The notes below the pieces were generated by a model, which saw only the letters and a list, made by a program, of their open reading frames with translations, did no database searches and had not been told where the DNA came from. A DNA stretch of 62,822 nt, counting the filler. It is 6 parts of 6 records of this genome, joined end to end, with 100 filler letters (N's around TTAATTAATTAA, not from the genome) between each part and the next. Parts side by side here need not be neighbours in the genome. Positions count along the whole stretch, not along the records: positions 1 to 24,665 come from SRR20825015_364; 5 more parts are not named here. The stretch is one strand, 5' to 3'. Every line of letters begins with the position of its first letter. Within the stretch, counting starts at the first letter, position 1. This document shows positions 10,749 to 23,056 of this stretch, piece after piece. Position numbers and translations under genes: made by a program.

Positions 10749-12736
10749 TGTCGCTGCGGCTTTCGCTGGTAATCGAGGGCGATGCCGCCGGAGCCAGAAA
10801 GGCTCTGCAGGAGACCGCCGGCGGGGTTGAGGATCTTGGCAAGAAGGCAGACGAGGCGTCGCGCAAGATCGAACGCGTCGGCCGGATCGAATGGAATGAC
10901 GCGGAGTTTGATCGGGCAAGAAATGGGCTAAAGGCAACGGCCGATGAAGGGGCTCGTGCAGCTGAGAACGTGTCGGATGCGGGCGATGCCGGTGCAAGGG
11001 CAGCTCCTGCATTCGCAGGGGTCGGAGATGCGGCCGGCGCGGCCGGAGAAAAGGTTTCCAACCTGAAAACGGCGCTGATCGGTGCCGCAGGCGGTTTGGC
11101 TGCGGGCGTCGCGATCACGGCTGTCGGTGAAGGTCTCAAACTTGCTGCCGGCGCTGCCGCCGATCTCTTCCGAGAGATCACCTCGAACCAACCGATGATC
11201 GAGCGGGCACTGAAAGGTCATGCAGCGCTCGTTGGCCGCATCAGGGGCGCGTGGGCCGAAGCTGCCGGTGCTGCCTCATCCTATGGCCTCAACGCCGAGC
11301 CAGTTCTCCGGTTCGAAAGCCAGCAGACCATCGGCCGGCTTGAGAACGCAGCCCAGGGATCGCAGCGAGATCTGTTTCAGAAAAGCGATGCGCTCAGGCC
11401 GTCGGACGTACTCGGCAATCCATTCGGCCACTTCGGCCCCATGCGTGAGACCGTTGCAGAGTTCCGCAAGGAACTGCGAGAGGGCCAGGCCGATGTCATC
11501 GCGTTCCGTCGCCAGGTTGGCGAGATTGCAGAGGCGTTGCCGAAGACCTCTCCGTTCCGGCAACTCGCCGAAGAAATACTGGAGGACACCAGAGCCGCAG
11601 CCGAGCTGCAGGCCGAGCTGGAAAGATCCCGCGATCTCCTGAGAGGCTTGAAGGGTGATGCCGAAGCCTCGGCAACAGCGCTTGGTGGCAAGGCGGACAA
11701 GTACAGGACGCTGCAGAGTGACGCCAGCGCCGCCGGCGAAGCGATTGAAACAAGCTCGCAAGACATTCGCGCCTCGGGTGAAGCGGCGGCAGGAGCGGTT
11801 CCTGCCCTTGCCGAGTATGATCGGCTGTTGAAGTCGATTGCCGGCGGTCAAGCAACTCCGGCAGAATTGGCTGGCTCGCCGGCACGTGCAGCGTTGACGC
11901 CTTTGACGGAAGGCCGCTCATTCGCCGGGGGCGGTTTCACCGGTCACATGCCGACGGACCGCATCGCCGGCGTGGTGCATGGGCGCGAATATGTTTTTGA
12001 CGCCGCTGCGACGGCACGGATCGGTGTGGCCAATCTGGATGCCATTCGTGCTGGCGTGTCGGGCTATGCCGGTGGTGGCTTTGTGACGACGCAGGCACGG
12101 ACCTACGGAAGCGCTTCACCCGCCTCGATGAGATCCTCACCCTTCACCGCCATAGCGGAGGACTTCGAGCTTCTGTCCGGATCTCTCCATCAGTTTTTGT
12201 CTGCCATTGCAGAGGGGCAGGATGTCATGTCATCGCTTGCTGGCGTCGTTGACCGGGTCAGCCAACGGTTTCTGGACTTCGCCTTCAGGGCGCTCGATCA
12301 GGCGATGTTCGGCGGCGGTGGTGGTGGCGGACTGATCGGCGCCCTGGTGGGTGTGGCAGGTCAGGCTCTGGGGTTCGGCGGGTTTGGGGCAGGAAGCTTT
12401 CCCCCCGCACCGATGGCGCCCGTTGGTCTCTATCATGGCGGCGGACAGGTTGGCGCGCAGCCGCTCAACACCCGACCCGCACCGGCCTCGCTGTTCATCG
12501 GTGCGCCGCGCATGCATTCAGGCGGATTTCTGAAACCTGGCGAACGGCCGATCATCGCCATGGACGGCGAAGAAATCGGCTGGCCCGATCAGCTTGCTCG
12601 CAAATACGCCTCCGGCCAGACGATCGTCAATCAGTTCCATATCGAGACGCCGAACCCGAAGGCCTTCGCCGAGAGCCGGGCGACGGTCGCCCGCGCAGGT
12701 GCCCGCTTCGCCGGCCGCTTCGCGAGGTACAGCTGA
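10748..12736 (+). CDS. Tail tape measure protein
   Basis: 662 aa, Ala/Gly-rich, FAGGGFTG, AGVVHGREYV and YHGGG motifs. Follows the chaperones. Confidence 0.88.
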   Translation: MSLRLSLVIEGDAAGARKALQETAGGVEDLGKKADEASRKIERVGRIEWNDAEFDRARNGLKATADEGARAAENVSDAGDAGARAAPAFAGVGDAAGAAGEKVSNLKTALIGAAGGLAAGVAITAVGEGLKLAAGAAADLFREITSNQPMIERALKGHAALVGRIRGAWAEAAGAASSYGLNAEPVLRFESQQTIGRLENAAQGSQRDLFQKSDALRPSDVLGNPFGHFGPMRETVAEFRKELREGQADVIAFRRQVGEIAEALPKTSPFRQLAEEILEDTRAAAELQAELERSRDLLRGLKGDAEASATALGGKADKYRTLQSDASAAGEAIETSSQDIRASGEAAAGAVPALAEYDRLLKSIAGGQATPAELAGSPARAALTPLTEGRSFAGGGFTGHMPTDRIAGVVHGREYVFDAAATARIGVANLDAIRAGVSGYAGGGFVTTQARTYGSASPASMRSSPFTAIAEDFELLSGSLHQFLSAIAEGQDVMSSLAGVVDRVSQRFLDFAFRALDQAMFGGGGGGGLIGALVGVAGQALGFGGFGAGSFPPAPMAPVGLYHGGGQVGAQPLNTRPAPASLFIGAPRMHSGGFLKPGERPIIAMDGEEIGWPDQLARKYASGQTIVNQFHIETPNPKAFAESRATVARAGARFAGRFARYS

Positions 12737-13368
12737 TGCCGGCGCCGTTCCTCGATGCCGCGATCTTCCCGGTCCATGTCTCGGCCGGCTCGCCCGGCGG
12801 TCCGGACTGGCCTGCCGAGATCGTCCAGCTCGCGTCTGGACGAGAGGAACGCAACAGCGCCTGGGCTTCACCCCTCAGGAGTTACGATGCCAAATATGGG
12901 GTGCGAACCCCAGCCGAACTGTATGAGGTGCTGTCCCTTTACCATGCCGCCATGGGGCGACTGTCCGGGTTTCGCTTTCTCGACTGGACCGACTACCGTT
13001 CAGCAGCTCCGCACCTCACGCCGACTGCCACCGACCAGCAATTGGGGCTCGGCGACGGGACGGAAACCTCGTTTCAGCTGTCCAAGCGATACTCCTTCGC
13101 CGGAGCACATCACGATCGCAGGATCACCCGGCCCTTTGGCACGATCCTTGTGGCCGTCGATGGTGCGCCGCAGGCAGGAGGTTTCACCATCGACCACACC
13201 ACCGGCGTCATCACCTTTGACGAGGCTCCCGCAAACGGTGCCGTTCTCACCTGGGGTGGACAGTTTCACGTGCCGGTGCGCTTTGACTGCAGGCTCGACC
13301 AGATCTCTCTGCGCACGGCGGCAATCGGCGACATCCCGTCGATATTCCTGAAGGAGCTGCGCGAATGA
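12736..13368 (+). CDS. GTA-like distal tail protein (DUF2460/TIGR02217)
   Basis: SGREERNSAW, GRLSGFRFLDWTDY, FHVPVRFD motifs. Confidence 0.9.
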   Translation: MPAPFLDAAIFPVHVSAGSPGGPDWPAEIVQLASGREERNSAWASPLRSYDAKYGVRTPAELYEVLSLYHAAMGRLSGFRFLDWTDYRSAAPHLTPTATDQQLGLGDGTETSFQLSKRYSFAGAHHDRRITRPFGTILVAVDGAPQAGGFTIDHTTGVITFDEAPANGAVLTWGGQFHVPVRFDCRLDQISLRTAAIGDIPSIFLKELRE

Positions 13369-14261
13369 AGACAATGCCCGCGGGCCTTCAGGACATGCTC
13401 GATACCGGCGTTACAACCCTGTGCAATTGCTGGCGCGTCGAACGGCTCGATGGGGCTGTCTTCGGCTTCACCGATCACGACCGACCGCTTACCTTTGCCG
13501 GTGTCACCCACAAACCGGAAACCGGTCTCACAGCCTCGGAAGTCTCTTCTTCGCTGGGGCTAGCCGTCGATACGATGGAGGTTGAGGGAGCGCTGTCTTC
13601 AGACGAGATCACGGAAGACGACATCGCGCTTGGAGCCTGGGACAACGCAGCGATCGAGCTCTGGCGCGTCGACTGGTCGAACGTCGCCAATCGGGTCATC
13701 CTGCGGCGCGGGTCGATTGGCGAGGTAACGCGTGGCGATTTGGCCTTCATGGCCGAGCTGCGCGGACTGACTCATGAGCTCAATCAGGAGAGTGGCAGGA
13801 AATATCAGCGCGCCTGCGATGCAGTGGTTGGCGACGACCGCTGCCGGGTCAATGTCGACCAATCCGCTTTCCGTGGAAACGGAACCGTCTCGGTGGCGCT
13901 TGATGACCGCCTGATCGCGGCCACCGGTCTAACGGGATTTTCCGACGAATGGTTCGCACAGGGAGTGCTCCAATGGACGTCCGGAGCAAATGTCGGAACC
14001 GTAACCGAGGTGTCGGGACATCTGAAGCAGGCGGATGGCCTGTCGGCATTGACGCTCTGGACCCGGGCGGGACGCACGATCAACGCCGGTGATACGTTCA
14101 CAGTCACAGCCGGTTGTGACAAACGCTTCGCCACCTGCCGACAGAAATTCTCCAATCAGCTCAACTTTCGCGGATTTCCGCATGTGCCGGGCAATGACTT
14201 CGCGCTCTCGACGGCAAAGAGGTCCGGGGACAATGACGGCGGGAGCTTCTTCAATGGTTAG
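13365..14261 (+). CDS. GTA-like baseplate hub protein (DUF2163/BR0599)
   Basis: CWRVERLDG..FGFTDHD and AGCDKRFATCRQKFSNQLNFRGFPHVPGND motifs. Confidence 0.92.
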   Translation: MKTMPAGLQDMLDTGVTTLCNCWRVERLDGAVFGFTDHDRPLTFAGVTHKPETGLTASEVSSSLGLAVDTMEVEGALSSDEITEDDIALGAWDNAAIELWRVDWSNVANRVILRRGSIGEVTRGDLAFMAELRGLTHELNQESGRKYQRACDAVVGDDRCRVNVDQSAFRGNGTVSVALDDRLIAATGLTGFSDEWFAQGVLQWTSGANVGTVTEVSGHLKQADGLSALTLWTRAGRTINAGDTFTVTAGCDKRFATCRQKFSNQLNFRGFPHVPGNDFALSTAKRSGDNDGGSFFNG

Positions 14262-14790
14262 GCCGCGCGCAAGAGATGCGCGGGTCATGGACTGGGATCG
14301 CGCGTTCCGTCGGAAGATCGCAGCCGTGGCGCGCAGCTACGATGGCGTTCCCTATCGTCACCAGGGGGCGGACCGCCGCGGATGCGACTGCCTGGGGCTG
14401 GTGCGCGCGGTCTGGCGCGAGCTCTACGAAGACGAGGCGGAGATCCCGCCAGCCTATGGTCCCGGATGGGCCGATGCCAGCGGCGTTGAAACACTTTTGA
14501 ACGCCGCAGGAAGGCATCTTGAAGCGCGTCCGGTTGCCGCCATGGCACCGGGTGATCTGCTCGTATTTCGCTGGCGCCCGCACCTGGCGGCGAGACATTG
14601 CGGCATTCTGGTTGCAGATGACCGCATGATCCATGCCTATGAGTCCGCCGGCCGTGTCGCAGAAGGGCATCTCGCCGAGGCCTGGCGGAAGCGGATCGCC
14701 GGGGTGTTCGCATTTCTGTACCCGCCGGGGGGCTGTGGCGTTGCGAACAGCTCGCTGAATGGCAGTGCCGGAAACGCGGAGAAAAGCTGA
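14254..14790 (+). CDS. NlpC/P60 phage cell wall peptidase
   Basis: PYRHQG, GCDCLGLVRAVW, ARHCGI, MIHAY motifs. Start may be 14287. Confidence 0.9.
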   Translation: MVRPRARDARVMDWDRAFRRKIAAVARSYDGVPYRHQGADRRGCDCLGLVRAVWRELYEDEAEIPPAYGPGWADASGVETLLNAAGRHLEARPVAAMAPGDLLVFRWRPHLAARHCGILVADDRMIHAYESAGRVAEGHLAEAWRKRIAGVFAFLYPPGGCGVANSSLNGSAGNAEKS

Positions 14791-17700
14791 TGGCCACCAT
14801 CCTTCTCGGCGTGGTGGGCGCTTCCATCGGCGGGACCTTCGGCGTGATTGGCGGTCTGGTCGGACAGGCCGTCGGCGCCCTTGCGGGGTCCTTTGCCGAC
14901 CGCGCCATTGTCTCTGCCCTGACCCCGCCCGTGAAGCGCGAAGGGCCGCGCCTGACCTCTACCGACATCCAGACAGCGACCGAAGGCTCGGACATCGACC
15001 GTGTCTATGGACGCGCCCGTGTGACAGGAGAGGTTTTCTGGGCAACACGGTTCGAAGAGGTTTCGAGAACGGAGCGCTCAGGCGGCAAGGGAATGAAGCC
15101 GAAGGTCGAAGTGACCACCTATCACTACTATGCCAATTTTGCCGTGGGGCTTTGCGAAGGCCCGATTGCCGGGATTGGTCGCATCTGGGCCGATGGCAAG
15201 GAGATCGATCAGACGGAGATCGAGTTTCGTGTGCACAAGGGCTCAGAGTCACAGGCCGTCGATCCTCTGATCGAAGCGAAGGAAGGTTCGGGAAATGCAC
15301 CTGCCTATCGCGGGCTTGCCTATCTCGTCTTCGAACGCCTGCACCTGGAAAACTACGGCAATCGCCTTCCCCAGATTGCCGTTGAGGTCTTTCGACCGAC
15401 CGGTGCTCTGGAGCAGATGGTTCCGGGGGTCGCGGTCATCGGCGCTAATGAAATGGGATTCGAGACAGAAGAAGTTCGCGTTATCGACTTCTTCGCCGGC
15501 GGCATTGCCCTGAACCGGCATACGAGGGTTGACGCCTCCGACTGGCTTGCGTCGATGAACCGGCTGCAGGATCTGGCACCCAATGTCCGGCAGGTGCTGC
15601 TTGTTTTGCCCTGGTTCGGTGACGACCTGAGGTGTGGCTCCTGTAGCTGCCGACCAAAGGTCGACAGTCAGGACAAGGCAACCAATGTTGTGTGGTCGGT
15701 GGCCGGGCTCTTCCGTTCCTTTGCCGATCTCATCTCCCTAGCGCAGGGTATTCCCGCCTATGGCGGCTCGCCATCCGATCAGGCCGTGGTCACGGCAATC
15801 CGCGATCTCAACGCACGTGGAATATCGGTTACTGTCGTGCCCTTTCTCATGATGGATGTGGCGGAGGGCAACGCACTGGCCGATCCCTATTCGGACCATG
15901 CTTCCTCGAGTGGTCAGCCTGCCTACCCGTGGCGCGGCCGCATCACCTGCTCGCCGGCGCCGGGCTTTGCGGGATCGCCCGACAAGACCGCCGGAGCGGC
16001 CGGCCAGGTGTCAGCATTCGTGGGAAGTGCAAGCGCTTCGGATTTCTCATCCAGTGGCGAGGCTGTCGAGTATTCCGGACCGGAGGAATGGTCCTACCGC
16101 CGCTTCATTCTCCATTACGCGAAGCTGGCGGCCATCGCCGGCGGTGTCGAGAGTTTTCTGATCGGCACTGAAATGCGTGGGCTGACACAGGTGCGGTCTG
16201 CGACTGGCGCCTATCCCTTCGTCAACGCGCTGAAAGCGATTGCTGCAGAAGTGCGCTCCCTTCTGGGCGGGAGCGTGAAGATTGGCTATGCGGCCGACTG
16301 GTCGGAATATCACTCCCACCGCCCGGCGGATGGGACCGGAGATGTCTGGTTCAATCTCGATCCGCTATGGTCGGATGCGAACATCGACTTCATCGGGATC
16401 GACAACTACCTGCCAATCGCGGACTGGCGCGACGGCACCGGCCATCTTGATTACAGCCCGACCGGGCCCACCACCATCTATGACCGCACCTATCTGGCCT
16501 CGAACGTCGAGGGCGGCGAATACTACGACTGGTTCTATGCCTCCGATGCGGATCGCAGAGCGCAGACAAGAACGCCGATCACCGATGGCGCTCATGGCAA
16601 GCCCTGGGTATTCCGCCAGAAAGATATCCGCGCATGGTGGGCGAACGCTCATGTCAACCGGCCGGGCGGCAGCGAGAGCGGCGCACCGACCGGATGGGTG
16701 CCTGAAGCAAAGCCGATCCGCTTTACGGAGCTCGGCTGTCCCGCGGTCGACAAGGGGGCAAACCAGCCGAATGTGTTTGTCGACCCGAAATCGTCAGAAA
16801 GCTTCTTTCCGCACTTTTCGAGCCGGGCGCGCGACGATGCGATGCAGCGGGCTTTTCTGGAAACGGTCATCAGCTACTGGTCCGAGAACAACCAGATGTC
16901 TTCTGTCTATGCCGGACCGATGATCGAGACGGAACGGACCTGCATCTGGGCGTGGGATGCGCGGCCGCATCCGTCCTTTCCACAGGATCTGCGCTGGGGC
17001 GATGCGGCGAACTGGGAGCTGGGTCACTGGATCTCGGGTCGTCTGGGCACGGCACCCGGCACGGAAACCGTGCGCACCGTGCTCGAGGATGCGGGGTTTG
17101 CACACCACGAGGTGGCGCCGTTGCCGACCGTGGTCGAGGGTATCACCACGGGCCGCGTGTTGTCGGCGCGTGCGATGCTCGAGGCGCTTCAGACCGTCTA
17201 TCAGTTCGAGGCGGTGGAGACTGGCGGACGACTGAAGGTCTCGGCCCGGTTGGGAGCCCTGCCGGTGGCGACCCTCGACGATGGTGATCTTGCCGTTTCG
17301 GCCGAGAGCGGGGAGCGGCCCGAGCGCTTTCGGCAGACACGGGCACAGGAAACCGAACTGCCTACAGCCATCAAGCTCTCCTATGGCGATCCCGGCCGTG
17401 ATGACCAGCCGGCATCGGCCGAGGCGCGGCGCTCGGCTGGCGGTTCGCGCCGCGTTCTGGAGATCGGCCTGCCGGCGATCATGGCAGAGGGACAGGCAAC
17501 CCGGCTGGCGGAGATCGAGCTCTCGCGGGTCTGGATCGCGCGCGAGCGGGCGGAGTTCGGCCTGCCGCCTTCCATGTTACGGCTCGATCCCGGAGACGTG
17601 GTCGACTTCCTGCCGACCCGCACGACGCTTCGCCTCGCGGAGATCCATGATGCCGGCCTGCGCCGCGCCGAAGCGCACCGCGTGGATCCGCAGGCGGCTG

Positions 17701-18701
17701 CCCCGGTGCCGCGCGCCTCTTCGGCGCCGCCCAGCCCGCCGGTCACGCTTTATCTTGGCGCACAGCTGACGCTAATCGACGGTCCGCTGCTGCGTGATGG
17801 CGATGCCGATGACGCCGCTCATATTGCCGGGGTGATGAAGCCCTGGCGTGCAGGCATGGCAGTCTACCGTTCGGCCGACGATACGGATTTCGCCCTCGAT
17901 ACACTCCTTGTCACGCCCGCCACCGCCGGTGTCACTCTGGAGGACCTCTATGCAGGGCCGGTCTGGCGCTGGGATCGCGGAAACACCCTGAGCGTGCGGC
18001 TTGTCTCAGGCGCGCTCTACTCAGCGACGGAGCGTCAGGTTCTGGACGGCGCAAACGCGGCACTGGTGGAAAACGAGGACGGCGAATGGGAACTTCTCCA
18101 GTTCGCCGAGGTGGCCGCGCTGGGAGACGGCGCCTTTGCACTGACAGGCCTGTTGCGGGGGCAGCGGGGCACGGAACACGCCATGCGCGCGCCGGTTCCT
18201 GCCGGCGCGCGCTTTGTGCTTGTCAATGAGGCGCTGCAGCAATGGACGCTGGATGCCGCTGCCATCGGCCTCTCGCGCAATTGGCGCTTTGGCCCGGCCG
18301 ACCGGGACATCGCTTCGCAGGATTACGATCAAGAGGCGTTCACGTTCAGAGCAAAGGCCCGGCGCCCGCTCTCGCCTGCAAGGTTGAACGGCCACCGGAT
18401 CGCCGCCACTGGCGATTGGCAGCTCACCTGGATCCGGCGCACGCGGATCGGCGGCGATGCCTGGTCGGAAACCGAGGTGCCGCTTGGCGAGGAAGAGGAG
18501 CGCTACCGGCTTGAAATCCTCGACGGACCGGGCGGGAGCGTGCTGCGCGCTGTCGAGCCGACCGAGGCGGGTTTCCTCTACACCGCCGCCCATCAGACCG
18601 ATGATTTCGGTTCACCGCAGACGGGTTTTCACGCCCGCGTTGCCCAGCGCAGCGCCCGCTATGGGCTCGGCATCTGGCGCACCGGATTTGTTTATGACTA
18701 G
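14790..18701 (+). CDS. GTA TIM-barrel baseplate multidomain protein (megatron/host specificity)
   Basis: 1303 aa. YYANFAVGLCEG, YRRFILHYA, YAADWSEY, DFIGIDNY, TELGCPAVDKGANQPN motifs. Confidence 0.93.
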   Translation: MATILLGVVGASIGGTFGVIGGLVGQAVGALAGSFADRAIVSALTPPVKREGPRLTSTDIQTATEGSDIDRVYGRARVTGEVFWATRFEEVSRTERSGGKGMKPKVEVTTYHYYANFAVGLCEGPIAGIGRIWADGKEIDQTEIEFRVHKGSESQAVDPLIEAKEGSGNAPAYRGLAYLVFERLHLENYGNRLPQIAVEVFRPTGALEQMVPGVAVIGANEMGFETEEVRVIDFFAGGIALNRHTRVDASDWLASMNRLQDLAPNVRQVLLVLPWFGDDLRCGSCSCRPKVDSQDKATNVVWSVAGLFRSFADLISLAQGIPAYGGSPSDQAVVTAIRDLNARGISVTVVPFLMMDVAEGNALADPYSDHASSSGQPAYPWRGRITCSPAPGFAGSPDKTAGAAGQVSAFVGSASASDFSSSGEAVEYSGPEEWSYRRFILHYAKLAAIAGGVESFLIGTEMRGLTQVRSATGAYPFVNALKAIAAEVRSLLGGSVKIGYAADWSEYHSHRPADGTGDVWFNLDPLWSDANIDFIGIDNYLPIADWRDGTGHLDYSPTGPTTIYDRTYLASNVEGGEYYDWFYASDADRRAQTRTPITDGAHGKPWVFRQKDIRAWWANAHVNRPGGSESGAPTGWVPEAKPIRFTELGCPAVDKGANQPNVFVDPKSSESFFPHFSSRARDDAMQRAFLETVISYWSENNQMSSVYAGPMIETERTCIWAWDARPHPSFPQDLRWGDAANWELGHWISGRLGTAPGTETVRTVLEDAGFAHHEVAPLPTVVEGITTGRVLSARAMLEALQTVYQFEAVETGGRLKVSARLGALPVATLDDGDLAVSAESGERPERFRQTRAQETELPTAIKLSYGDPGRDDQPASAEARRSAGGSRRVLEIGLPAIMAEGQATRLAEIELSRVWIARERAEFGLPPSMLRLDPGDVVDFLPTRTTLRLAEIHDAGLRRAEAHRVDPQAAAPVPRASSAPPSPPVTLYLGAQLTLIDGPLLRDGDADDAAHIAGVMKPWRAGMAVYRSADDTDFALDTLLVTPATAGVTLEDLYAGPVWRWDRGNTLSVRLVSGALYSATERQVLDGANAALVENEDGEWELLQFAEVAALGDGAFALTGLLRGQRGTEHAMRAPVPAGARFVLVNEALQQWTLDAAAIGLSRNWRFGPADRDIASQDYDQEAFTFRAKARRPLSPARLNGHRIAATGDWQLTWIRRTRIGGDAWSETEVPLGEEEERYRLEILDGPGGSVLRAVEPTEAGFLYTAAHQTDDFGSPQTGFHARVAQRSARYGLGIWRTGFVYD

Positions 18702-19601: not shown

Positions 19602-19805
19602 ATGAAGGATGTTCGCTGTGGCCGATGCCGCGCATTGCTCTTCAGGGCGAACAACGATAGGAGCGAGATTGAGATCAAATGCCGCCGATGCGGCACGATC
19701 AATCATCTGAGGCCGGCCGAGCCCGAACCGGAACGCCAGGAGCGTCCGCCAAGGGAAAGCTCGTGTGGCTCTATCTCCCCCCGGAATGCCTCGACCGCAG
19801 GATGA
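19602..19805 (+). CDS. com: Com family zinc-finger translational regulator
   Basis: DVRCGRCRALLFR...IEIKCRRCGTIN. Sits at the Mu com position and overlaps the downstream modification gene. Confidence 0.9.
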   Translation: MKDVRCGRCRALLFRANNDRSEIEIKCRRCGTINHLRPAEPEPERQERPPRESSCGSISPRNASTAG

Positions 19806-20677
19806 GCTCAAAGGCGTCGCGCTTTGTGCTGGCGTTGGCGGACTGGAGCTCGGCCTCCATGTCGCAGAACCCGGATATCGGACTGTATGTTTCGTCGAGC
19901 GGGAAACCTTCGCTGCGGCCACCCTCGTGGCCCGGATGGAAGACCAGGCCCTGGATCACGCGCCTTTATGGGACGACCTTGCCACCTTCGACGGCCGCCC
20001 ATGGCGCGGCAAGGTTCATATCGTCACTGGAGGTTATCCCTGCCAGCCCTTCTCCTGTGCAGGCCGCAAGCGCGGCGCGCGCGACCCAAGGCACCTGTGG
20101 CCACATATCCGGCGGATTGTCGCGGAAATCGAGCCCGGATGGTGTTTCTTCGAGAATGTCGAAGGACATCTCGACCTGGGATCCGCCAAGGTCATCAGCG
20201 ACCTTCGCAAAATGGGCTACCGCGTCAAAGCGGGCCTGTTCTCGGCGGCTGAGGTCGGCGCTTCACACTATCGCCGGCGGCTCTTCATTGTGGCCCACGC
20301 CAACCCGCAGCCTCTACTGCAACCGGATCGAGGTGGAGCTATCGGAACAGGGATTGAAGCTTCGCCACGATCCGAACCAGACGGGAAGCCAGGTCGCGAT
20401 AGGCAAGGCAGCAAAGCTCTGGACGATGATCTGGCTGATTGTCACGAGTTGCGCGGAGAGGCCGAAATCCTTCAACTTCCGCTCTTCGCACCGGCTCCAT
20501 CTGAGTTTGACCGCTGGGGGGAGATACTCGGCCGGCGACCTGACCTTCAACCCGAACTTCTCGGACTGGCTGATCGGGTGGCCGATCGGATGGACCGCGC
20601 CCAGGCAGCCGGTAACGGAGTGGTCAGCCTGGCTGCAGCATATGCGTGGCGCACTCTCAAGGCTGCCCATTTGTTAG
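19763..20677 (+). CDS. Putative methyltransferase beta subunit in an overlapping frame (motif IX carrier)
   Basis: Frame open across the alpha gene. Contains WPTP and NPNFSDWLIGWPIGWT. GTG at 19763 shares SD AAGGGA. True start may be internal. Confidence 0.7.
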   Translation: MWLYLPPECLDRRMSSKASRFVLALADWSSASMSQNPDIGLYVSSSGKPSLRPPSWPGWKTRPWITRLYGTTLPPSTAAHGAARFISSLEVIPASPSPVQAASAARATQGTCGHISGGLSRKSSPDGVSSRMSKDISTWDPPRSSATFAKWATASKRACSRRLRSALHTIAGGSSLWPTPTRSLYCNRIEVELSEQGLKLRHDPNQTGSQVAIGKAAKLWTMIWLIVTSCAERPKSFNFRSSHRLHLSLTAGGRYSAGDLTFNPNFSDWLIGWPIGWTAPRQPVTEWSAWLQHMRGALSRLPIC

Positions 20678-20715
20678 AATCGGAACTACAGGAAGCTGGA
20701 TATCCTGCAATGTAA
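19765..20715 (+). CDS. C5 DNA cytosine methyltransferase, alpha subunit
   Basis: Motif I LCAGVGG, IV GGYPCQPFS, VI FENV, VIII HYRRRLFIV, X AGNGVV. No motif IX recognisable in this frame. Confidence 0.9.
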   Translation: MALSPPGMPRPQDELKGVALCAGVGGLELGLHVAEPGYRTVCFVERETFAAATLVARMEDQALDHAPLWDDLATFDGRPWRGKVHIVTGGYPCQPFSCAGRKRGARDPRHLWPHIRRIVAEIEPGWCFFENVEGHLDLGSAKVISDLRKMGYRVKAGLFSAAEVGASHYRRRLFIVAHANPQPLLQPDRGGAIGTGIEASPRSEPDGKPGRDRQGSKALDDDLADCHELRGEAEILQLPLFAPAPSEFDRWGEILGRRPDLQPELLGLADRVADRMDRAQAAGNGVVSLAAAYAWRTLKAAHLLESELQEAGYPAM

Positions 20716-20770
20716 ATCTCGGATCGCGAATGATATACTGTCCAAACACGTGATAGTGGGAGGGGAGAAT

Positions 20771-21562
20771 ATGCGTGCTTTGATCATTAGCGTTGTTTTC
20801 GGGTTGACATGGAGCGGTTTGGCAAACGCGCAATGTAGCCATGGAAGTGCATTTTGGACCGCCGAGCACAATAGTGTGCGTCATGTTCTCTATGGTGACA
20901 ACGGCATCAACTATGGCAGCAACATCACTATTGAAGAATGGCGGCAGTCGACCCTTGCATGGACGACCAAGGGGCAGGTCACTTGCTCGAACGGTGCATC
21001 CATCTGTTACGCGCAAATCACGAATGCACGCGAAAACAGCACGTCAGGCGCAGCACCGACAACTACCGATGCTATCATCGAAACTATAGATGAAAACGGC
21101 GATGGGACGGCAGAATGGGTGGTTCTCGCCGCCTTATCGCAGTTGCTTCGGTGGGAGGGTGCGAATGCGACTTGGCATTTGGAACGGGATCCAGGGGAAG
21201 TAGCAAGACCTCCCAACGTTTATAGATTTCAAGGGTGTCGCTCAACTCAAGAACCTACGCAGGAGCTTTCTCGGCAGGTCATTGTCGGGCAGCTCTATGC
21301 AACGCGAGATGTCTGTCAAACCTTCCTAAAGACGGGGGTTCCGGTGCACGCGAACTCCGATGAATTCGACGACGGCTTATGGTGGATGGATGACGAGAAG
21401 GTCGTCGGTTGGGAGCACCACTGTTTGATCGCATCGGCTTACGATGAAACTCTACATTTGGCCTGTGTTGGCGAAGGTGAAGCGCGAACTGAAACGTGGA
21501 GTTATTTGGAGGAAGAAAATCGTCGGCTTGTAAATGGCAAGGAGTTACTTCTTTGTCAGTGA
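20771..21562 (+). CDS. Hypothetical secreted Cys-rich protein
   Basis: Signal peptide MRALIISVVFGLTWSGLANA/Q, SD GGGGAG, multiple Cys. Confidence 0.7.
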   Translation: MRALIISVVFGLTWSGLANAQCSHGSAFWTAEHNSVRHVLYGDNGINYGSNITIEEWRQSTLAWTTKGQVTCSNGASICYAQITNARENSTSGAAPTTTDAIIETIDENGDGTAEWVVLAALSQLLRWEGANATWHLERDPGEVARPPNVYRFQGCRSTQEPTQELSRQVIVGQLYATRDVCQTFLKTGVPVHANSDEFDDGLWWMDDEKVVGWEHHCLIASAYDETLHLACVGEGEARTETWSYLEEENRRLVNGKELLLCQ

Positions 21563-21594: not shown

Positions 21595-22377
21595 TTAAGA
21601 GTGCTCTCGGTTTGCAATCTGGAAATTACAGTTGCGCCATAATTCTTCAGAACACTTTCTCGCGATTTTTCGAGCACCTTCCCAATCAAATGTTGAGCCG
21701 TTGAGCGATAAATGCAGGTGATCTGCAATCTCTACGGTTTTCTCGAGCAACCAGGTCTCATCGCCGTATTTCACCTTTCGCGGTGCTTCAGCCTTTGGCT
21801 TGGAAGGCAGTTCCAGATTGTGAGCGATGTATCGGTCTCTAAAGTATCGAATAGCGGCAAGCTGTTCTGATTGTCTCACGGAGGCGCATTCATTGATGGC
21901 GCAGCGGAGGCGTTCCAACGCGGTACGGCTTTCTTTTTCAGCTTTCTCCTCGCGGTAGGAGTGCATAAAGCTTCGTTTCGCTTCAATTAAATGTGGGTCA
22001 TCAGTCGGATTAAGATCCGTCACCATTAGGTCGTTCAAATAGTAGTCGCGCACCTCTTCAATCACAGAATCTATGATGCCGGTCTCGTCTATTAGGGCGA
22101 TGATCGTCGGAATGCTCTCTCGATCTGCGCTTGGCGGGTCCCAGAGGGCTGCAAGTCGGATCACCTCAAACAAATACATGCTGGTTTGAAACTGATTAAA
22201 CGCATGTCCGGCGTAGGATCGTGGTATCTGGCTGGCAAGTCGGCCGTCATAGATCGTATAGACGTTAGCTTCATGCATCTCAAATAGACCGGTGATATGG
22301 TCGATCAAACGCTCCGTTCTTGACTTTGCAACCTTCAACCGATCCTCTTTGGACCACGATTGGGGGAAACTGGGCAT
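21595..22377 (-). CDS. HEPN domain protein (AbiU2-like)
   Basis: FEVIRLAALWD and HEPN-type RDRYIAH motif. Confidence 0.75.
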   Translation of the reverse strand: MPSFPQSWSKEDRLKVAKSRTERLIDHITGLFEMHEANVYTIYDGRLASQIPRSYAGHAFNQFQTSMYLFEVIRLAALWDPPSADRESIPTIIALIDETGIIDSVIEEVRDYYLNDLMVTDLNPTDDPHLIEAKRSFMHSYREEKAEKESRTALERLRCAINECASVRQSEQLAAIRYFRDRYIAHNLELPSKPKAEAPRKVKYGDETWLLEKTVEIADHLHLSLNGSTFDWEGARKIARKCSEELWRNCNFQIANREHS

Positions 22378-22396: not shown

Positions 22397-23056
22397 CTAG
22401 TCACTTGGAACGCTAGGCGCCTCAACCACCATCAGTCCATCATTACGCAGTGGCCGTTGCAGCGTCTTGGCTTCATCCCAAGGTGCTCTTAGCCATGCGT
22501 CCATCTCGTCTTTCGTCGTGAGAATGACGGGCATGGCCTTCTTGTGCACCGGTTCGACGATGGCGTTCGGCTCGGTGGTGAGGAAGCCGTAGAGTTCGTG
22601 GTCGTCCGCCTCCTCCCGCGCCATACGCTTGCCGTGCCATGCCGTCCACAGCCCGGCGAAGGCGAAGAGCGGCCGATCTTCACTCAGGGCAAACCATGCA
22701 TTCGGCGTGCGCTTATCGCCTTCCTTCCGGCTGCCGGGATCGGGCTCGGCAAAACTCGTTGCTGGCACCAGGCAGCGGTATTCAGGCGAAAGCCATTTGC
22801 GCCAGTGCGCGGACCCGGTGTTGCGGATATTCGTGACGCCGCTGTCATGCTGGCCCTTGATGAACATGGGCGGTGTCGGCATGCCCCAGCGCGCACGCAC
22901 CAGTTCGCGCTCGCCATCCTCTCCAATCCGCGCGATCGGGGCATAGCGGTTTGGATAAACCTGCAGGGAGGGCTCGTTGAAGCCATAGTCCCGGAGGGTT
23001 CCGACAAACTGCCGCAACGCCTCGCGCGTGGTGGTCACGTTGTAGAGATTGCACAT
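22397..23056 (-). CDS. SOS response-associated peptidase (SRAP/HMCES/YedK family)
   Basis: MCNLY with catalytic Cys2, RCLVPATSFAE, FAFAGLW, PVHKKAMPVIL. Confidence 0.93.
   Translation of the reverse strand: MCNLYNVTTTREALRQFVGTLRDYGFNEPSLQVYPNRYAPIARIGEDGERELVRARWGMPTPPMFIKGQHDSGVTNIRNTGSAHWRKWLSPEYRCLVPATSFAEPDPGSRKEGDKRTPNAWFALSEDRPLFAFAGLWTAWHGKRMAREEADDHELYGFLTTEPNAIVEPVHKKAMPVILTTKDEMDAWLRAPWDEAKTLQRPLRNDGLMVVEAPSVPSD

What the first reader, a model, noticed from the sequence alone, without database searches (positions are those of the whole stretch)
19763..20715. Two-subunit C5 methyltransferase encoded in fully overlapping frames with interleaved GTGTG starts
Seen: frame A (19765-20715) has C5-MTase motifs I, IV, VI, VIII and X but no recognisable motif IX. 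A second same-strand frame stays open for over 300 codons across the gene and carries WPTP and NPNFSDWLIGWPIGWT, a motif-IX-like block. Both frames have a GTG within GTGTG (19763 gives MWLYLP, 19765 gives MALSPP), behind one SD (AAGGGA). Known: M.EcoHK31I supplies motif IX on a beta polypeptide encoded in an alternative frame inside the alpha gene. Inference: one ribosome-binding site may launch both subunits of a heterodimeric phage anti-restriction MTase. Standard annotation would miss the beta gene.
Basis: partly seen in the sequence, partly recalled or inferred. Interest (0 to 1): 0.85.

Follow-up and report, generated by a model that had tools for sequence, protein, structure and literature searches.

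The report
Two methylase subunits, one overlapping gene
A prophage DNA cytosine methylase gene is read in two frames over its whole length, apparently giving a catalytic protein and a DNA-recognition partner that gene finders usually miss.

Summary
Frame A (19765-20715, "alpha") is a C5 cytosine methyltransferase. Pfam matches only its first half. Its AlphaFold model has a disordered stretch where the target-recognition domain should be. Frame B (+1; 19763-20677, "beta") is open throughout, and this is not a GC artefact.

- **Stops:** across 73 homologous loci plus the window, frame B has 0 stops over alpha's N-terminal part. Shuffling synonymous codons within each gene predicts 128.
- **Starts:** 72 of 73 have a frame-B start codon within a few bases of alpha's start.
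- **Frozen sites:** alpha's four-fold sites are fixed exactly where beta has conserved W, S, G, R or P.
- **Central region:** there only the beta frame is conserved as protein.
- **Distant phages:** the same +1 overlap occurs in a 42% GC Acinetobacter phage, a Salmonella phage and Paenibacillus phages. Only the Paenibacillus record annotates both genes.
- **Split relative:** in mycobacteriophage Corndog the beta block sits in one chain with motif X.

The best reading is a heterodimeric methyltransferase like M.EcoHK31I. It differs in having complete overlap and near-coincident starts behind one Shine-Dalgarno site. It probably sits under a Mu Com-like translational switch.

I rate it a new variant of a known kind.

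The parts
19602..19805 (+). com-like zinc-ribbon gene (third frame). It overlaps both methylase starts by about 40 nt.
   Evidence: PF10122 Zn_ribbon_Com, E 1.2e-12, 47.6 bits against a cut-off of 22.9. A homologue lies directly upstream in 36 of 78 loci.
19733..19745 (+). Small RNA hairpin ACGC-CAGGA-GCGU just 5' of the Shine-Dalgarno site. Candidate Com target.
   Evidence: Found at the same distance in 26 of 33 loci. 24 double-changed cells against 5.3 in shuffles (the loci were picked by a hairpin search). CC(N)2-3GAG is present in 9 of 26 including the window. That motif comes from passages of PMC6483171.
19751..19756 (+). Shine-Dalgarno-like AAGGGA serving both starts.
   Evidence: Read from the sequence. 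An AGGAG/AAGGA-like run lies at the same place in the aligned loci.
19763..20677 (+). beta ORF (frame +1 of alpha), 304 codons from GTG 19763.
   Evidence: Stop-free in 74 of 74 (0 against 128 expected in the N part, 2 against 47 in the C part). Conserved start. Profile hits in 9988 clusters. phrog_1008.
19765..20715 (+). alpha ORF: C5 cytosine methyltransferase catalytic subunit, 316 codons.
   Evidence: PF00145 E 1e-30. phrog_363 E 2.5e-55. More than 3900 homologues, the 120 best listed covering 82-97% of the query. The AlphaFold model matches M.HaeIII and M.HhaI over about 170 columns.
20305..20475 (+). Stretch where alpha is a variable, disordered linker (aa 181-237) and beta encodes the TRD-like region.
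   Evidence: Alpha pLDDT is below 50 over most of 184-233 (184-187, 189-197, 200-233). Beta-frame BLOSUM scores are 144-170 against 8-43 for alpha in L001, L002 and L004. WPTP-type repeat insertions are in frame B.
20291..20302 (+). beta WPTP, overlapping alpha's RRRLFIVA end.
   Evidence: Invariant W1 P2 T3 P4 in A2.
20549..20596 (+). beta NPNFSDWLIGWPIGWT (motif-IX-like block).
   Evidence: Invariant N, P, F, G, W, W in 39 sequences. Aligns to Corndog gp6 121-154, just before its IIGNGVCP (prob 96%). Alpha four-fold sites P263, G271 and A273 are frozen.
20611..20625 (+). alpha GNGVV (motif X).
   Evidence: Invariant G283 N284 G285 V286 in 116 sequences. The motif name is recalled.

Best explanation
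The locus encodes a two-subunit C5 cytosine methyltransferase in two completely overlapping same-strand frames.

**Alpha (19765-20715)** is the AdoMet-binding catalytic domain. It carries motifs I-VIII, then a junk-like linker, then a conserved C-terminal block with motif X.

**Beta (19763-20677, +1 frame)** has three parts.
- A loosely constrained N-terminal half that simply reads across alpha's catalytic domain.
- A variable WPTP-repeat region that most likely recognises the target sequence.
- The NP.F.E.LMGWP.GWT block, which stands where motif IX stands.

**Initiation (inferred).** One Shine-Dalgarno site places ribosomes on either of two start codons 2 nt apart (GTGTG). Both chains would then be made from one mRNA in a fixed ratio.

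**Function (inferred).** The chains associate to rebuild a complete enzyme, as shown experimentally for M.EcoHK31I.

**Control (inferred).** The pair sits at the end of a prophage, behind a Mu Com-like zinc-ribbon gene and a small Com-type RNA hairpin. Translation is probably switched on late, as for Mu mom, and the enzyme probably methylates phage DNA as an orphan protective methylase.

**Shown versus inferred.** Shown here: purifying selection on both frames, on the paired starts and on the hairpin. Inferred: translation of beta, heterodimer formation, dependence of alpha on beta, Com control and the biological role.
For: **Frame B kept open**
- 0 stops over alpha's N part in 74 of 74 (73 loci plus the window) against 128.4 expected (lowest of 200 shuffles: 106). 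2 against 47.1 in the C part.
- Frame +2 has 5-24 stops per full-length locus.

**Start**
- A frame-B ATG, GTG or TTG lies within -11..+7 of alpha's start in 72 of 73, against 8 of 73 for frame +2. Positions are -2 (40), -5 (28) and +4 (14).
- In several loci a frame-B stop lies just upstream: L012, L040, L058, L009.
- Alpha uses the codons GCT-CTA so that beta reads W-L-Y. That these codons are rare in high-GC genomes is general knowledge, not tested here.

**Frozen synonymous sites in alpha where beta is conserved**
- V55 G 69/70 (beta W).
- L63 G 52/54 (W).
- A161 G 73/74 (R).
- G271 G 71/71.
- A294 G 73/73.

**Central region**
- The beta frame is conserved and alpha is not: WIN-L002 scores 170 against 8.
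- WPTP-repeat insertions are in frame B.

**Alpha lacks a small domain**
- Pfam covers profile positions 2-166 of 324.
- Most of residues 184-233 have pLDDT below 50.
- Foldseek aligns about 170 columns to 1dct and M.HhaI entries.

**Beta is a widespread protein family**
- 9988 clusters at E<=1e-3.
- phrog_1008, E 2.8e-15.

**The same +1 overlap at low GC and in distant phages**
- Acinetobacter phage ABMM1, 42% GC.
- Salmonella phage ABTNLsp11242.
- Paenibacillus phage Jacopo gp56/gp57.

**Split relative**
- Corndog gp7 carries motifs I-VIII. Its gp6 carries the beta block and then GNGV in one chain.

**Precedent**
- M.EcoHK31I alpha and beta are both needed for activity (passages of PMC2836561).

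**Com module**.
Against: - There is no direct evidence of translation in either frame. No usable RNA or ribosome data were found.
- Beta alone folds poorly in AlphaFold: mean pLDDT 44, with residues 22-143 below 50.
- Over alpha codons 16-180 the most variable position is beta's second codon position. Most of beta's N-terminal half therefore evolves with little amino-acid constraint.
- Four-fold-site divergence in that part (0.188) is only slightly below flanking genes (0.215). That comparison used 208 non-independent pairs from one subgroup.
- The beta profile finds nothing among PDB sequences, no Pfam family and no match to E. coli Dcm. 'Motif IX' is therefore positional.
- Some relatives have a shorter beta with stops in the 5' part of the frame: Jacopo, C72C1 and Stenotrophomonas phage S72. 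A full-length beta is not required in every lineage.
- L024 and L050 have an interrupted beta, and L003 an interrupted alpha.
Confidence: 0.72

Rival explanations
1. Beta is real, but it is made only from an internal start, as in M.EcoHK31I (for example ATG 20156, giving 173 aa). The 5' half of frame B would be untranslated and the start at 19763 unused.
For: - ATG 20156 exists in the window, and in about half of the 22 relatives shown.
- Gene callers predict such a form (P0132, 176 aa).
- Beta's N-terminal half shows little amino-acid constraint and low pLDDT.
- Jacopo, C72C1 and S72 have short nested betas.
- In M.EcoHK31I, internal Met codons of beta can serve as starts (passages of PMC2836561).
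Against: - This reading does not explain 0 against 128 expected stops in the 5' half.
- It does not explain the frame-B start codon beside alpha's in 72 of 73.
- It does not explain the conserved MWLY.P, or the frozen alpha synonymous sites at beta W56, G58 and W64.
- The internal ATG is not conserved. It depends on alpha's Asn codon in ENV.
- No Shine-Dalgarno-like run precedes it (read).
Confidence: 0.14
2. Beta is a translated overlapping gene, but its function is independent of the methylase. It could be another DNA-binding or anti-defence protein, with alpha active on its own.
For: - Beta has no Pfam family and no match to solved structures.
- Its nearest atlas clusters are unnamed.
- Binding could not be tested.
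Against: - In every case examined here beta is co-encoded with an alpha-type gene.
- In Corndog the beta block is in one chain with motif X, while gp7 carries only motifs I-VIII.
- Alpha lacks any structured region between motif VIII and the C-terminal block.
- M.EcoHK31I alpha without beta is inactive (passages of PMC2836561).
Confidence: 0.06
3. A single chain is made by programmed ribosomal frameshifting: frame A through motif VIII, +1 into frame B for the TRD and motif IX, then back to frame A for motif X.
For: Along the DNA the motifs lie in the canonical order I-VIII, variable region, IX-like, X, in frames A, B, A.
Against: - It needs two shifts.
- The junctions overlap: alpha's FIVA and beta's WPTP share bases at 20287-20302, so residues would be lost.
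- No slippery or stop-stimulated site is visible (read).
- It does not explain why frame B is open and has its own start at the 5' end.
- It does not explain why alpha is conserved at full length in the 120 best-listed homologues.
- Jacopo and Corndog relatives have separate starts for beta.
Confidence: 0.04
4. Frame B is an untranslated shadow ORF produced by base composition, or the gene is a frameshifted pseudogene.
For: - The prophage part of the window is fairly GC-rich, and long alternative-frame ORFs do occur there.
- In the window alone the shuffle expects only about 4.6 stops.
Against: - The shuffle keeps codon usage and still expects 128 + 47 stops across 74, against 0 + 2 seen.
- The overlap persists at 42% GC.
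- Beta shows protein-like conservation, with 1661 clusters at E<=1e-10.
- Alpha is intact and conserved end to end.
Confidence: 0.03

Closest known systems
M.EcoHK31I (and M.EaeI), the heterodimeric C5 methyltransferase of E. coli HK31 (Lee, Kam and Shaw 1995; seen only through passages of PMC2836561 and PMC3404938)
   Same: - Alpha carries motifs I-VIII and X.
- A second polypeptide, read in another frame of the same DNA, supplies motif IX.
- In that enzyme both polypeptides are needed for activity.
   Different: - Here beta spans the whole alpha gene and starts 2 nt before it. In M.EcoHK31I it starts inside alpha. The lengths of 309 and 176 aa are recalled, not seen.
- Here the variable, TRD-like region is in beta. 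The papers place the predicted TRD of M.EcoHK31I in alpha.
- Here no restriction enzyme is adjacent. The gene is prophage-borne, behind a com-like gene.
- Sequence homology to M.EcoHK31I could not be tested, because its sequence is in none of the tools.
Nested methylase gene pair of Paenibacillus larvae phages (e.g. Jacopo gp56/gp57), both annotated 'DNA cytosine methyltransferase'
   Same: - Beta lies in the +1 frame of alpha.
- It has WPTP-type repeats and an LNP.WVE.LMGFP.GWT end.
- The ABMM1 beta query, a phage relative of the window's beta, matches it by tblastn.
   Different: - Beta there is 234 aa and starts at an internal ATG, after several frame-B stops.
- Both genes are annotated in that record.
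- The passages found by my term search of PMC6070908 list the genes but do not comment on the overlap.
Split methylases: mycobacteriophage Corndog gp7/gp6, and M.AquI (alpha motifs I-VIII, beta IX-X; passage of PMC3404938)
   Same: - Two polypeptides.
- Corndog gp6 carries the same LPTP...NPAFAEWMMGWPDGW block (E 1.4e-9).
   Different: - Motif X (IIGNGVCP) is in the beta chain there.
- Alpha ends after motif VIII.
- The genes overlap by only about 200 nt.
- In the window, motif X has moved to alpha's frame.
Phage Mu com-mom translational control, and Mu-like prophages that carry a methyltransferase in place of mom (abstract of PMC3299994; passages of PMC6483171)
   Same: - A Com zinc-ribbon gene lies directly upstream of, and overlaps, a DNA-modification gene that starts with GUG, at the end of a prophage.
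- A short hairpin with CC(N)2-3GAG lies 5' of the start.
   Different: - The regulated gene is a C5 methylase pair, not Mom or an N6-adenine methylase.
- No conserved translation-inhibition hairpin was found.
- Com binding is untested.

Membership tests
C-5 cytosine DNA methylase (Pfam PF00145): alpha | Profile match above the gathering score | tested here: met
   E 1e-30, 107.8 bits against a cut-off of 22. Only profile positions 2-166 of 324 are matched.
C-5 cytosine DNA methylase (PF00145): alpha | Catalytic PCQ, ENV and AdoMet-binding G.G motifs | tested here: met
   Invariant Y91 P92 C93 Q94, E130 N131 V132 and G23/G26 in 116 sequences. Motif names are recalled.
C-5 cytosine DNA methylase (PF00145): alpha | Own small domain (TRD plus motif IX) between motifs VIII and X | tested here: not met
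   No profile match past residue 183. Most of residues 184-233 have pLDDT below 50. Foldseek aligns only about 170 columns to monomeric enzymes of 324-327 aa.
M.EcoHK31I-type heterodimeric C5 methylase | Second polypeptide encoded in another frame of the alpha gene | tested here: met
   The +1 ORF is conserved and stop-free. It extends 2 nt beyond alpha's start rather than lying wholly inside.
M.EcoHK31I-type heterodimeric C5 methylase | Beta supplies motif IX | tested here: inconclusive
   The block lies just before motif X on the DNA, and in one chain with motif X in Corndog gp6. There is no profile match to Dcm, Pfam or the PDB.
M.EcoHK31I-type heterodimeric C5 methylase | Both chains required for methylation; chains associate | not testable with these tools
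   Complex prediction returned 'not folded'.
M.EcoHK31I-type heterodimeric C5 methylase | Sequence homology to M.EcoHK31I alpha and beta | not tested
   The sequence is in no tool used. The 1995 paper (PMC306636) is not held.
M.EcoHK31I-type heterodimeric C5 methylase | Part of a restriction-modification pair | tested here: not met
   Neighbours are Com and DUF2793 upstream, and an unknown ORF, HEPN AbiU2 and SRAP downstream. Only the immediate neighbours were scanned.
M.AquI / Corndog-type split methylase | Motifs IX and X together on the second chain; alpha ends after motif VIII | tested here: not met
   In the window GNGVV is in alpha's frame, and alpha runs on to 20715.
Mu com-type translational control | Com zinc-ribbon protein encoded directly upstream | tested here: met
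   PF10122, E 1.2e-12, 47.6 bits against 22.9. Present in 36 of 78 loci.
Mu com-type translational control | Short hairpin with the Com target motif 5' of the start | tested here: met
   The window has the hairpin and CC-AG-GAG. Covariation is reported. The motif is present in 9 of 26 loci, and a CC(N)4GAG variant in 9 more.
Mu com-type translational control | Translation-inhibition structure holding the SD or start | tested here: not met
   z-score 0.77. No consensus structure. An alternative pairing is found in only 5 of 26.

The most novel reading that the evidence does not exclude
The phage and prophage clade of 'small' C5 methylases may as a rule consist of two-chain enzymes whose subunits are written over each other. 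In this lineage the overlap is total: about 300 codons, two proteins, one ribosome-binding site, and interleaved start codons that fix the subunit ratio.

Beta's first 170 codons would be largely a translated leader. Its only job would be to carry ribosomes from the shared start to the out-of-frame recognition module. That would be a relic of frameshifts that moved the TRD and motif IX (and, relative to Corndog, motif X) between frames.

Two-subunit C5 methylases would then be common rather than the two textbook exceptions. Synthetic genes for these enzymes that are codon-optimised for alpha would be dead.
Probability: 0.45. Interest if true: 0.85.

Novelty: new variant of a known kind. Interest (0 to 1): 0.7.

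Why it matters
**1. Annotation and use.** Thousands of prophage and phage cytosine methylases may have an unannotated second subunit. Expressing alpha alone, or a version recoded for alpha, would destroy beta and probably the activity. This affects methylome assignment, REBASE-type characterisation and plasmid pre-methylation tools.

**2. Enzymology.** The literature I could read calls two-chain C5 methylases exceptions, naming M.AquI and M.EcoHK31I (PMC3404938). The beta profile hits 9988 sequence clusters.

**3. Overlapping genes.** Long same-strand overlaps in bacteria and phages are rarely this well supported. This is a complete overlap of about 300 codons, conserved from Bacillota phages to alphaproteobacterial prophages. 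It forms a visible mosaic of which frame is under selection.

**4. Translation.** Two out-of-frame start codons 2-5 nt apart behind one Shine-Dalgarno site would be a simple device for setting stoichiometry. A Com-type switch appears to sit on top of it.

Tried and rejected
- **Complex prediction.** Complex prediction on alpha (A1) with beta residues 131-304 (A3) came back 'NOT FOLDED' on a likeness rule and was counted.
- **Beta structure.** AlphaFold on beta alone gave mean pLDDT 44. That is too poor for a fold search, so none was run on it.
- **Beta profile against known families.** PDB sequences gave 0 hits at E<=10. E. coli Dcm by hhalign gave prob 0.2%. Pfam on beta, P0127, P0201, ABMM1 beta, Jacopo gp57 and Corndog gp6 gave nothing relevant. 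NCBIfam gave nothing for beta.
- **Protein atlas.** Only unnamed 'hypothetical protein' clusters of 114-143 aa were returned.
- **tblastn in phages.** The window's own beta found one record. The composition filter probably hides the rest. The ABMM1 beta found 123.
- **RNA structure at the start.** z-score 0.77. RNAalifold gave 0 pairs. A Mu-like inhibitory pairing of GAGC with the 4 nt before the start is present in only 5 of 26. Rfam gave only a chance mir-199 match below threshold.
- **Closer relatives for a dN/dS-type test.**
  - The window's assembly is not held.
  - G001 lacks the locus.
  - 0 of 151 genomes of G001's family match.
  - Plasmids hold only distant matches.
- **Four-fold-site divergence.** In 208 close pairs, all from one Rhodobacterales-like subgroup: N part 0.188, C part 0.125, flanking genes 0.215. 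The flanks are very uneven, from 0.01 to 0.63. This is weak for the N part.
- **Sequencing runs.**
  - One RNA run held 5% of the words, as contigs covering only 20560-20673. This is no evidence of expression.
  - Thirteen substitutions from two related contigs split into 4 silent in alpha, 3 silent in beta and 6 changing both. That is too few to test anything.
- **First central-segment comparison.** One search used a faulty anchor, a WATA match upstream. It was replaced.
- **Literature.**
  - Searches found no paper describing a full-length or widespread overlap in C5 methylases.
  - The 1995 M.EcoHK31I paper is not held.
  - Supplements were not consulted.
Full report
**What is in the window.**
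- GTGTG lies at 19763-19767, 6-8 nt downstream of AAGGGA (19751-19756).
- GTG 19765 opens frame A ("alpha", 316 codons, to 20715).
- GTG 19763 lies in frame B (alpha +1), which is open for 334 codons stop to stop and ends at 20677 ("beta", 304 codons from 19763).
- The third frame has 11 stops over the same stretch.
- Alpha matches Pfam PF00145 (E 1e-30), but only over residues 16-183, against profile positions 2-166 of 324.
- Beta matches no Pfam or NCBIfam model.
- The gene directly upstream (19602-19805, third frame) is a Mu Com-type zinc ribbon (PF10122, E 1.2e-12). It overlaps both starts.
- Further upstream lie prophage head and tail genes and a DUF2793 protein.
- Downstream lie an unknown ORF, a HEPN AbiU2 gene and an SRAP gene.
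- No restriction enzyme was seen among these neighbours.

**Alpha is a real, full-length, conserved protein.**
- A word-indexed search found 3901 relatives among 8000 scored candidates. The best 120 are 277-340 aa long, 56-97% identical, and cover 82-97% of the query.
- Alignments of 20 and 116 sequences show three zones: a strongly conserved N-terminal domain (to residue 180), an unalignable stretch (181-237), and a conserved C-terminal block (LPLFAPAP...W..IL..RPDLQPE...DR..AAGNGVV.LAAA.A).
- This rules out my first suspicion, a pseudogene broken by two frameshifts.
- AlphaFold with 116 sequences gives mean pLDDT 72. Most of 184-233 is below 50 (segments 184-187, 189-197, 200-233).
- Foldseek's best matches are M.HaeIII (1dct, E 7e-13) and many M.HhaI entries, aligned over only about 170 columns of enzymes 324-327 residues long.
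- Alpha therefore has the catalytic domain and a C-terminal helix. It has nothing structured where monomeric enzymes have the small, DNA-recognising domain.

**Frame B is kept open by selection.**
- I fetched 80 homologous loci (alpha 43-72% identical, mostly Alphaproteobacteria).
- Over the alpha match, frame B has no stop before the last 25 or so codons in all but L024 and L050. L003 has a truncated alpha. Frame +2 has 5-24 stops per full-length locus.
- For the formal test I dropped seven loci. L003 has a truncated alpha. L016 and L044 are cut by a contig end. For L037, L051, L073 and L076 my automatic choice of alpha's start was wrong, and those four show no frame-B stop.
- In the remaining 73 loci plus the window, I shuffled synonymous codons within each gene, which keeps codon usage.
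  - N-terminal part: 128.4 frame-B stops expected (lowest of 200 shuffles 106), 0 observed.
  - C-terminal part: 47.1 expected (lowest 33), 2 observed, namely L024 and L050.
- The loci are related, but at this divergence four-fold sites are largely randomised.

**Both starts are conserved together.**
- In 72 of 73 sequences (72 loci plus the window) there is an ATG, GTG or TTG in frame B within -11..+7 of alpha's start. Frame +2 has one in 8 of 73.
- Three layouts recur.
  - NTGTG, with beta's codon at -2: 40 cases (23 TTG, 11 GTG, 6 ATG). The window belongs here.
  - ATG or GTG at -5: 28 cases.
  - ATG at +4: 14 cases. This is also the layout in the Acinetobacter and Salmonella phages.
- In L012, L040, L058 and L009 a frame-B stop lies just upstream, so this codon is the first possible start.
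- The bases after it are conserved as G-TGG-CTC-TA. Alpha thus begins GTG-GCT-CTA, and beta reads W-L-Y. That these alpha codons are unusual in such genomes is general knowledge, not tested here.

**Which frame is selected, where.**
- Codon-position entropies show alpha's pattern (third position most variable) over codons 16-180, 241-255 and 286-300. Around the NP.F...GWT block (271-285) they show beta's pattern or a mixed one.
- In the central stretch (alpha 181-237) the beta-frame translations of L001, L002 and L004 score 144-170 against 8-43 for alpha. All eight nearest relatives compared score higher in the beta frame. Over all 2556 pairs the means are 26.5 (beta), 0.6 (alpha) and 7.5 (third frame), and beta wins in 1516 pairs.
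- Length differences between lineages are insertions of extra WPTP..A.D-type repeats in frame B.
- At four-fold sites of invariant alpha residues, most are free (1.2-1.9 bits), but a subset is frozen, always where beta has a conserved residue.
  - V55 G 69/70 (beta W).
  - L54 C 66/72 (S).
  - R57 G 65/70 (G).
  - L63 G 52/54 (W).
  - A161 G 73/74 (R).
  - A177 C 64/68 (the first P of WPTP).
  - P263 C 72/73, G271 G 71/71 and A273 C 72/74 (the NP...GWP block).
  - A294 G 73/73 (R).
- So even the N-terminal half of beta has selected residues (SW.GW.TRPW), although most of it drifts.
- A pairwise test on 208 close pairs gave four-fold divergence of 0.188 (N part), 0.125 (C part) and 0.215 (flanking genes). 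The flanks are heterogeneous and the pairs are not independent.

**Beta is a widespread protein.**
- A profile of the C-terminal 128-193 residues of beta (39 sequences) hit 9988 clusters at E<=1e-3 and 1661 at E<=1e-10 among 1.84 billion representatives.
- The nine hits I read are all beta-frame ORFs of various lengths. Examples are P0127 (302 aa, starting MWLFIPP) and P0132 (176 aa, starting at the internal Met).
- A word-indexed search with the full beta found 86 clusters. Where named, nearly all are 'hypothetical protein'. One, P0292, is named 'recombinase family protein'.
- PHROGs places beta in phrog_1008, labelled 'DNA methyltransferase' (E 2.8e-15), and alpha in phrog_363 (E 2.5e-55).

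**The same overlap in distant phages.**
- Acinetobacter phage vB_AbaM_ABMM1: the locus is 42% GC. The whole +1 frame of the annotated methylase is open and ends in KLNPNWVEWLMGWPIGWT. Only alpha is annotated.
- Salmonella phage ABTNLsp11242: the same arrangement. The four near-full-length E. coli RefSeq homologues (H87-H90) carry a 'DNA cytosine methyltransferase' annotation and no beta; H89 and H90 also touch an unrelated ead/Ea22-like gene.
- Paenibacillus phage Jacopo: gp57 (234 aa) is nested in the +1 frame of gp56 (351 aa), and both are annotated as cytosine methyltransferases.
- Phage C72C1 and Stenotrophomonas phage S72 have shorter betas with stops in the 5' part of the frame.
- Mycobacteriophage Corndog: gp7 is motifs I-VIII only (PF00145 positions 3-162). 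The partly overlapping gp6 carries LPTP, NPAFAEWMMGWPDGW and then IIGNGVCP in one chain. The beta profile aligns to gp6 residues 121-154 with probability 96%.
- The Corndog result is the best evidence here that the beta block is the piece that precedes motif X in these enzymes, which is the place of motif IX. A direct profile comparison with E. coli Dcm, Pfam or PDB sequences gave nothing, so the label remains positional.

**Mechanism proposed.**
- Alpha is the catalytic subunit. Beta supplies the recognition region and motif IX. The two assemble as in M.EcoHK31I.
- For M.EcoHK31I the papers I read state three things (passages of PMC2836561 and PMC3404938).
  - Beta lies wholly in another frame of alpha.
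  - Silencing beta's start codons abolishes methylation.
  - Supplying beta in trans restores it.
- Here one Shine-Dalgarno site would serve two start codons 2 nt apart.
- The N-terminal half of beta looks like a translated leader with a few selected residues. AlphaFold gives it pLDDT below 50.
- All of this beyond the selection signals is inference.

**Likely control by Com.**
- A Com homologue lies directly upstream in 36 of 78 loci, nearly all of the NTGTG group.
- Just 5' of the Shine-Dalgarno site there is a 4-6 bp hairpin at a fixed distance in 26 of 33 loci. Its stems covary: 24 double-changed cells against 5.3 in shuffles, and 1-6 in slid controls.
- The loci were chosen by a hairpin search, and the hairpin lies in Com's own coding sequence. 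Even so, the covarying bases are third codon positions of Arg and Glu/Asp codons.
- The window's hairpin reads CGCC-AG-GAG-CG. This fits the CC(N)2-3GAG motif that Mu Com recognises in a hairpin loop next to the mom start (passages of PMC6483171). 9 of 26 loci fit, and 9 more have a 4-nt spacer.
- A Mu-like inhibitory second hairpin was not found.
- Mu-like prophages with a methyltransferase in place of mom are known, but those are N6-adenine enzymes (abstract of PMC3299994).

**Novelty.**
- Two-chain C5 methylases and the alternate-frame beta are known (M.EcoHK31I, M.AquI). The Paenibacillus pair is annotated in GenBank.
- What I could not find in print:
  - The complete overlap with paired start codons.
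  - Its conservation across many prophages and phages.
  - The placement of the variable region in beta.
  - The link to a Com module.
- PMC3404938 calls two-chain enzymes exceptions among monomers.
- The library lacks most subscription journals and the 1995 paper itself. REBASE could not be consulted.

**Limits.**
- There are no expression or translation data.
- The window's own genome is not held.
- No relative closer than about 72% was available as a locus. One related contig with 15 differences was too similar to be informative.

Noticed in passing
window 19602-19805 and 19733-19745: A Com-type zinc-ribbon gene in the third frame overlaps both methylase starts, so three frames are coding over 19763-19805. 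Inside its 3' end lies a covarying 4-bp hairpin with the Mu Com target motif CC(N)2GAG, just 5' of the Shine-Dalgarno site.
   Followed up: partly
window 20667-20677: Contigs of three public runs (X1, X4, X5) match the window up to 20667-20673 and then continue with a different, shared sequence (table 7). The window's last 14 or so alpha codons (LLESELQEAGYPAM) are therefore not shared with its nearest relatives. The break coincides with beta's stop. It may be a prophage or recombination junction.
   Followed up: no
window 21595-22377 (-) and 22397-23056 (-): A HEPN AbiU2 abortive-infection-type gene (E 5e-25) and an SRAP gene (E 8e-24) lie just beyond the methylase. An unknown ORF with a signal-peptide-like start lies at 20750-21562.
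   Followed up: no
window 20567-20578: One low-depth contig (run X5, depth 5.4) lacks 12 nt inside the beta NPNFSDWLIGWPIGWT block, between two similar GGnnGATCGG runs. The deletion is in frame for both alpha and beta. It may be an assembly error (table 4).
   Followed up: no
L085 (mycobacteriophage Corndog) 398-1343: gp7 and gp6 form a split methylase in which the beta-type chain also carries motif X. Together with the nested and fully overlapping forms, this suggests a series linked by frameshifts that moved motif X between frames.
   Followed up: partly
window 14790-18701 and 12736-14261: The tail module is of the gene-transfer-agent type: GTA TIM-barrel host-specificity protein, glycoside hydrolase and tail assembly protein. 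Head genes are phrog_328 and phrog_371. The window's GC content drops in its other parts.
   Followed up: no
P0331 and P0292: Two database proteins mix frames or genes. P0331 is a 270-aa PF00145 protein that matches 28% of beta at 62% identity. P0292 is a 'recombinase family protein' that matches 75% of beta. They are probably frameshifted or run-on gene calls.
   Followed up: no
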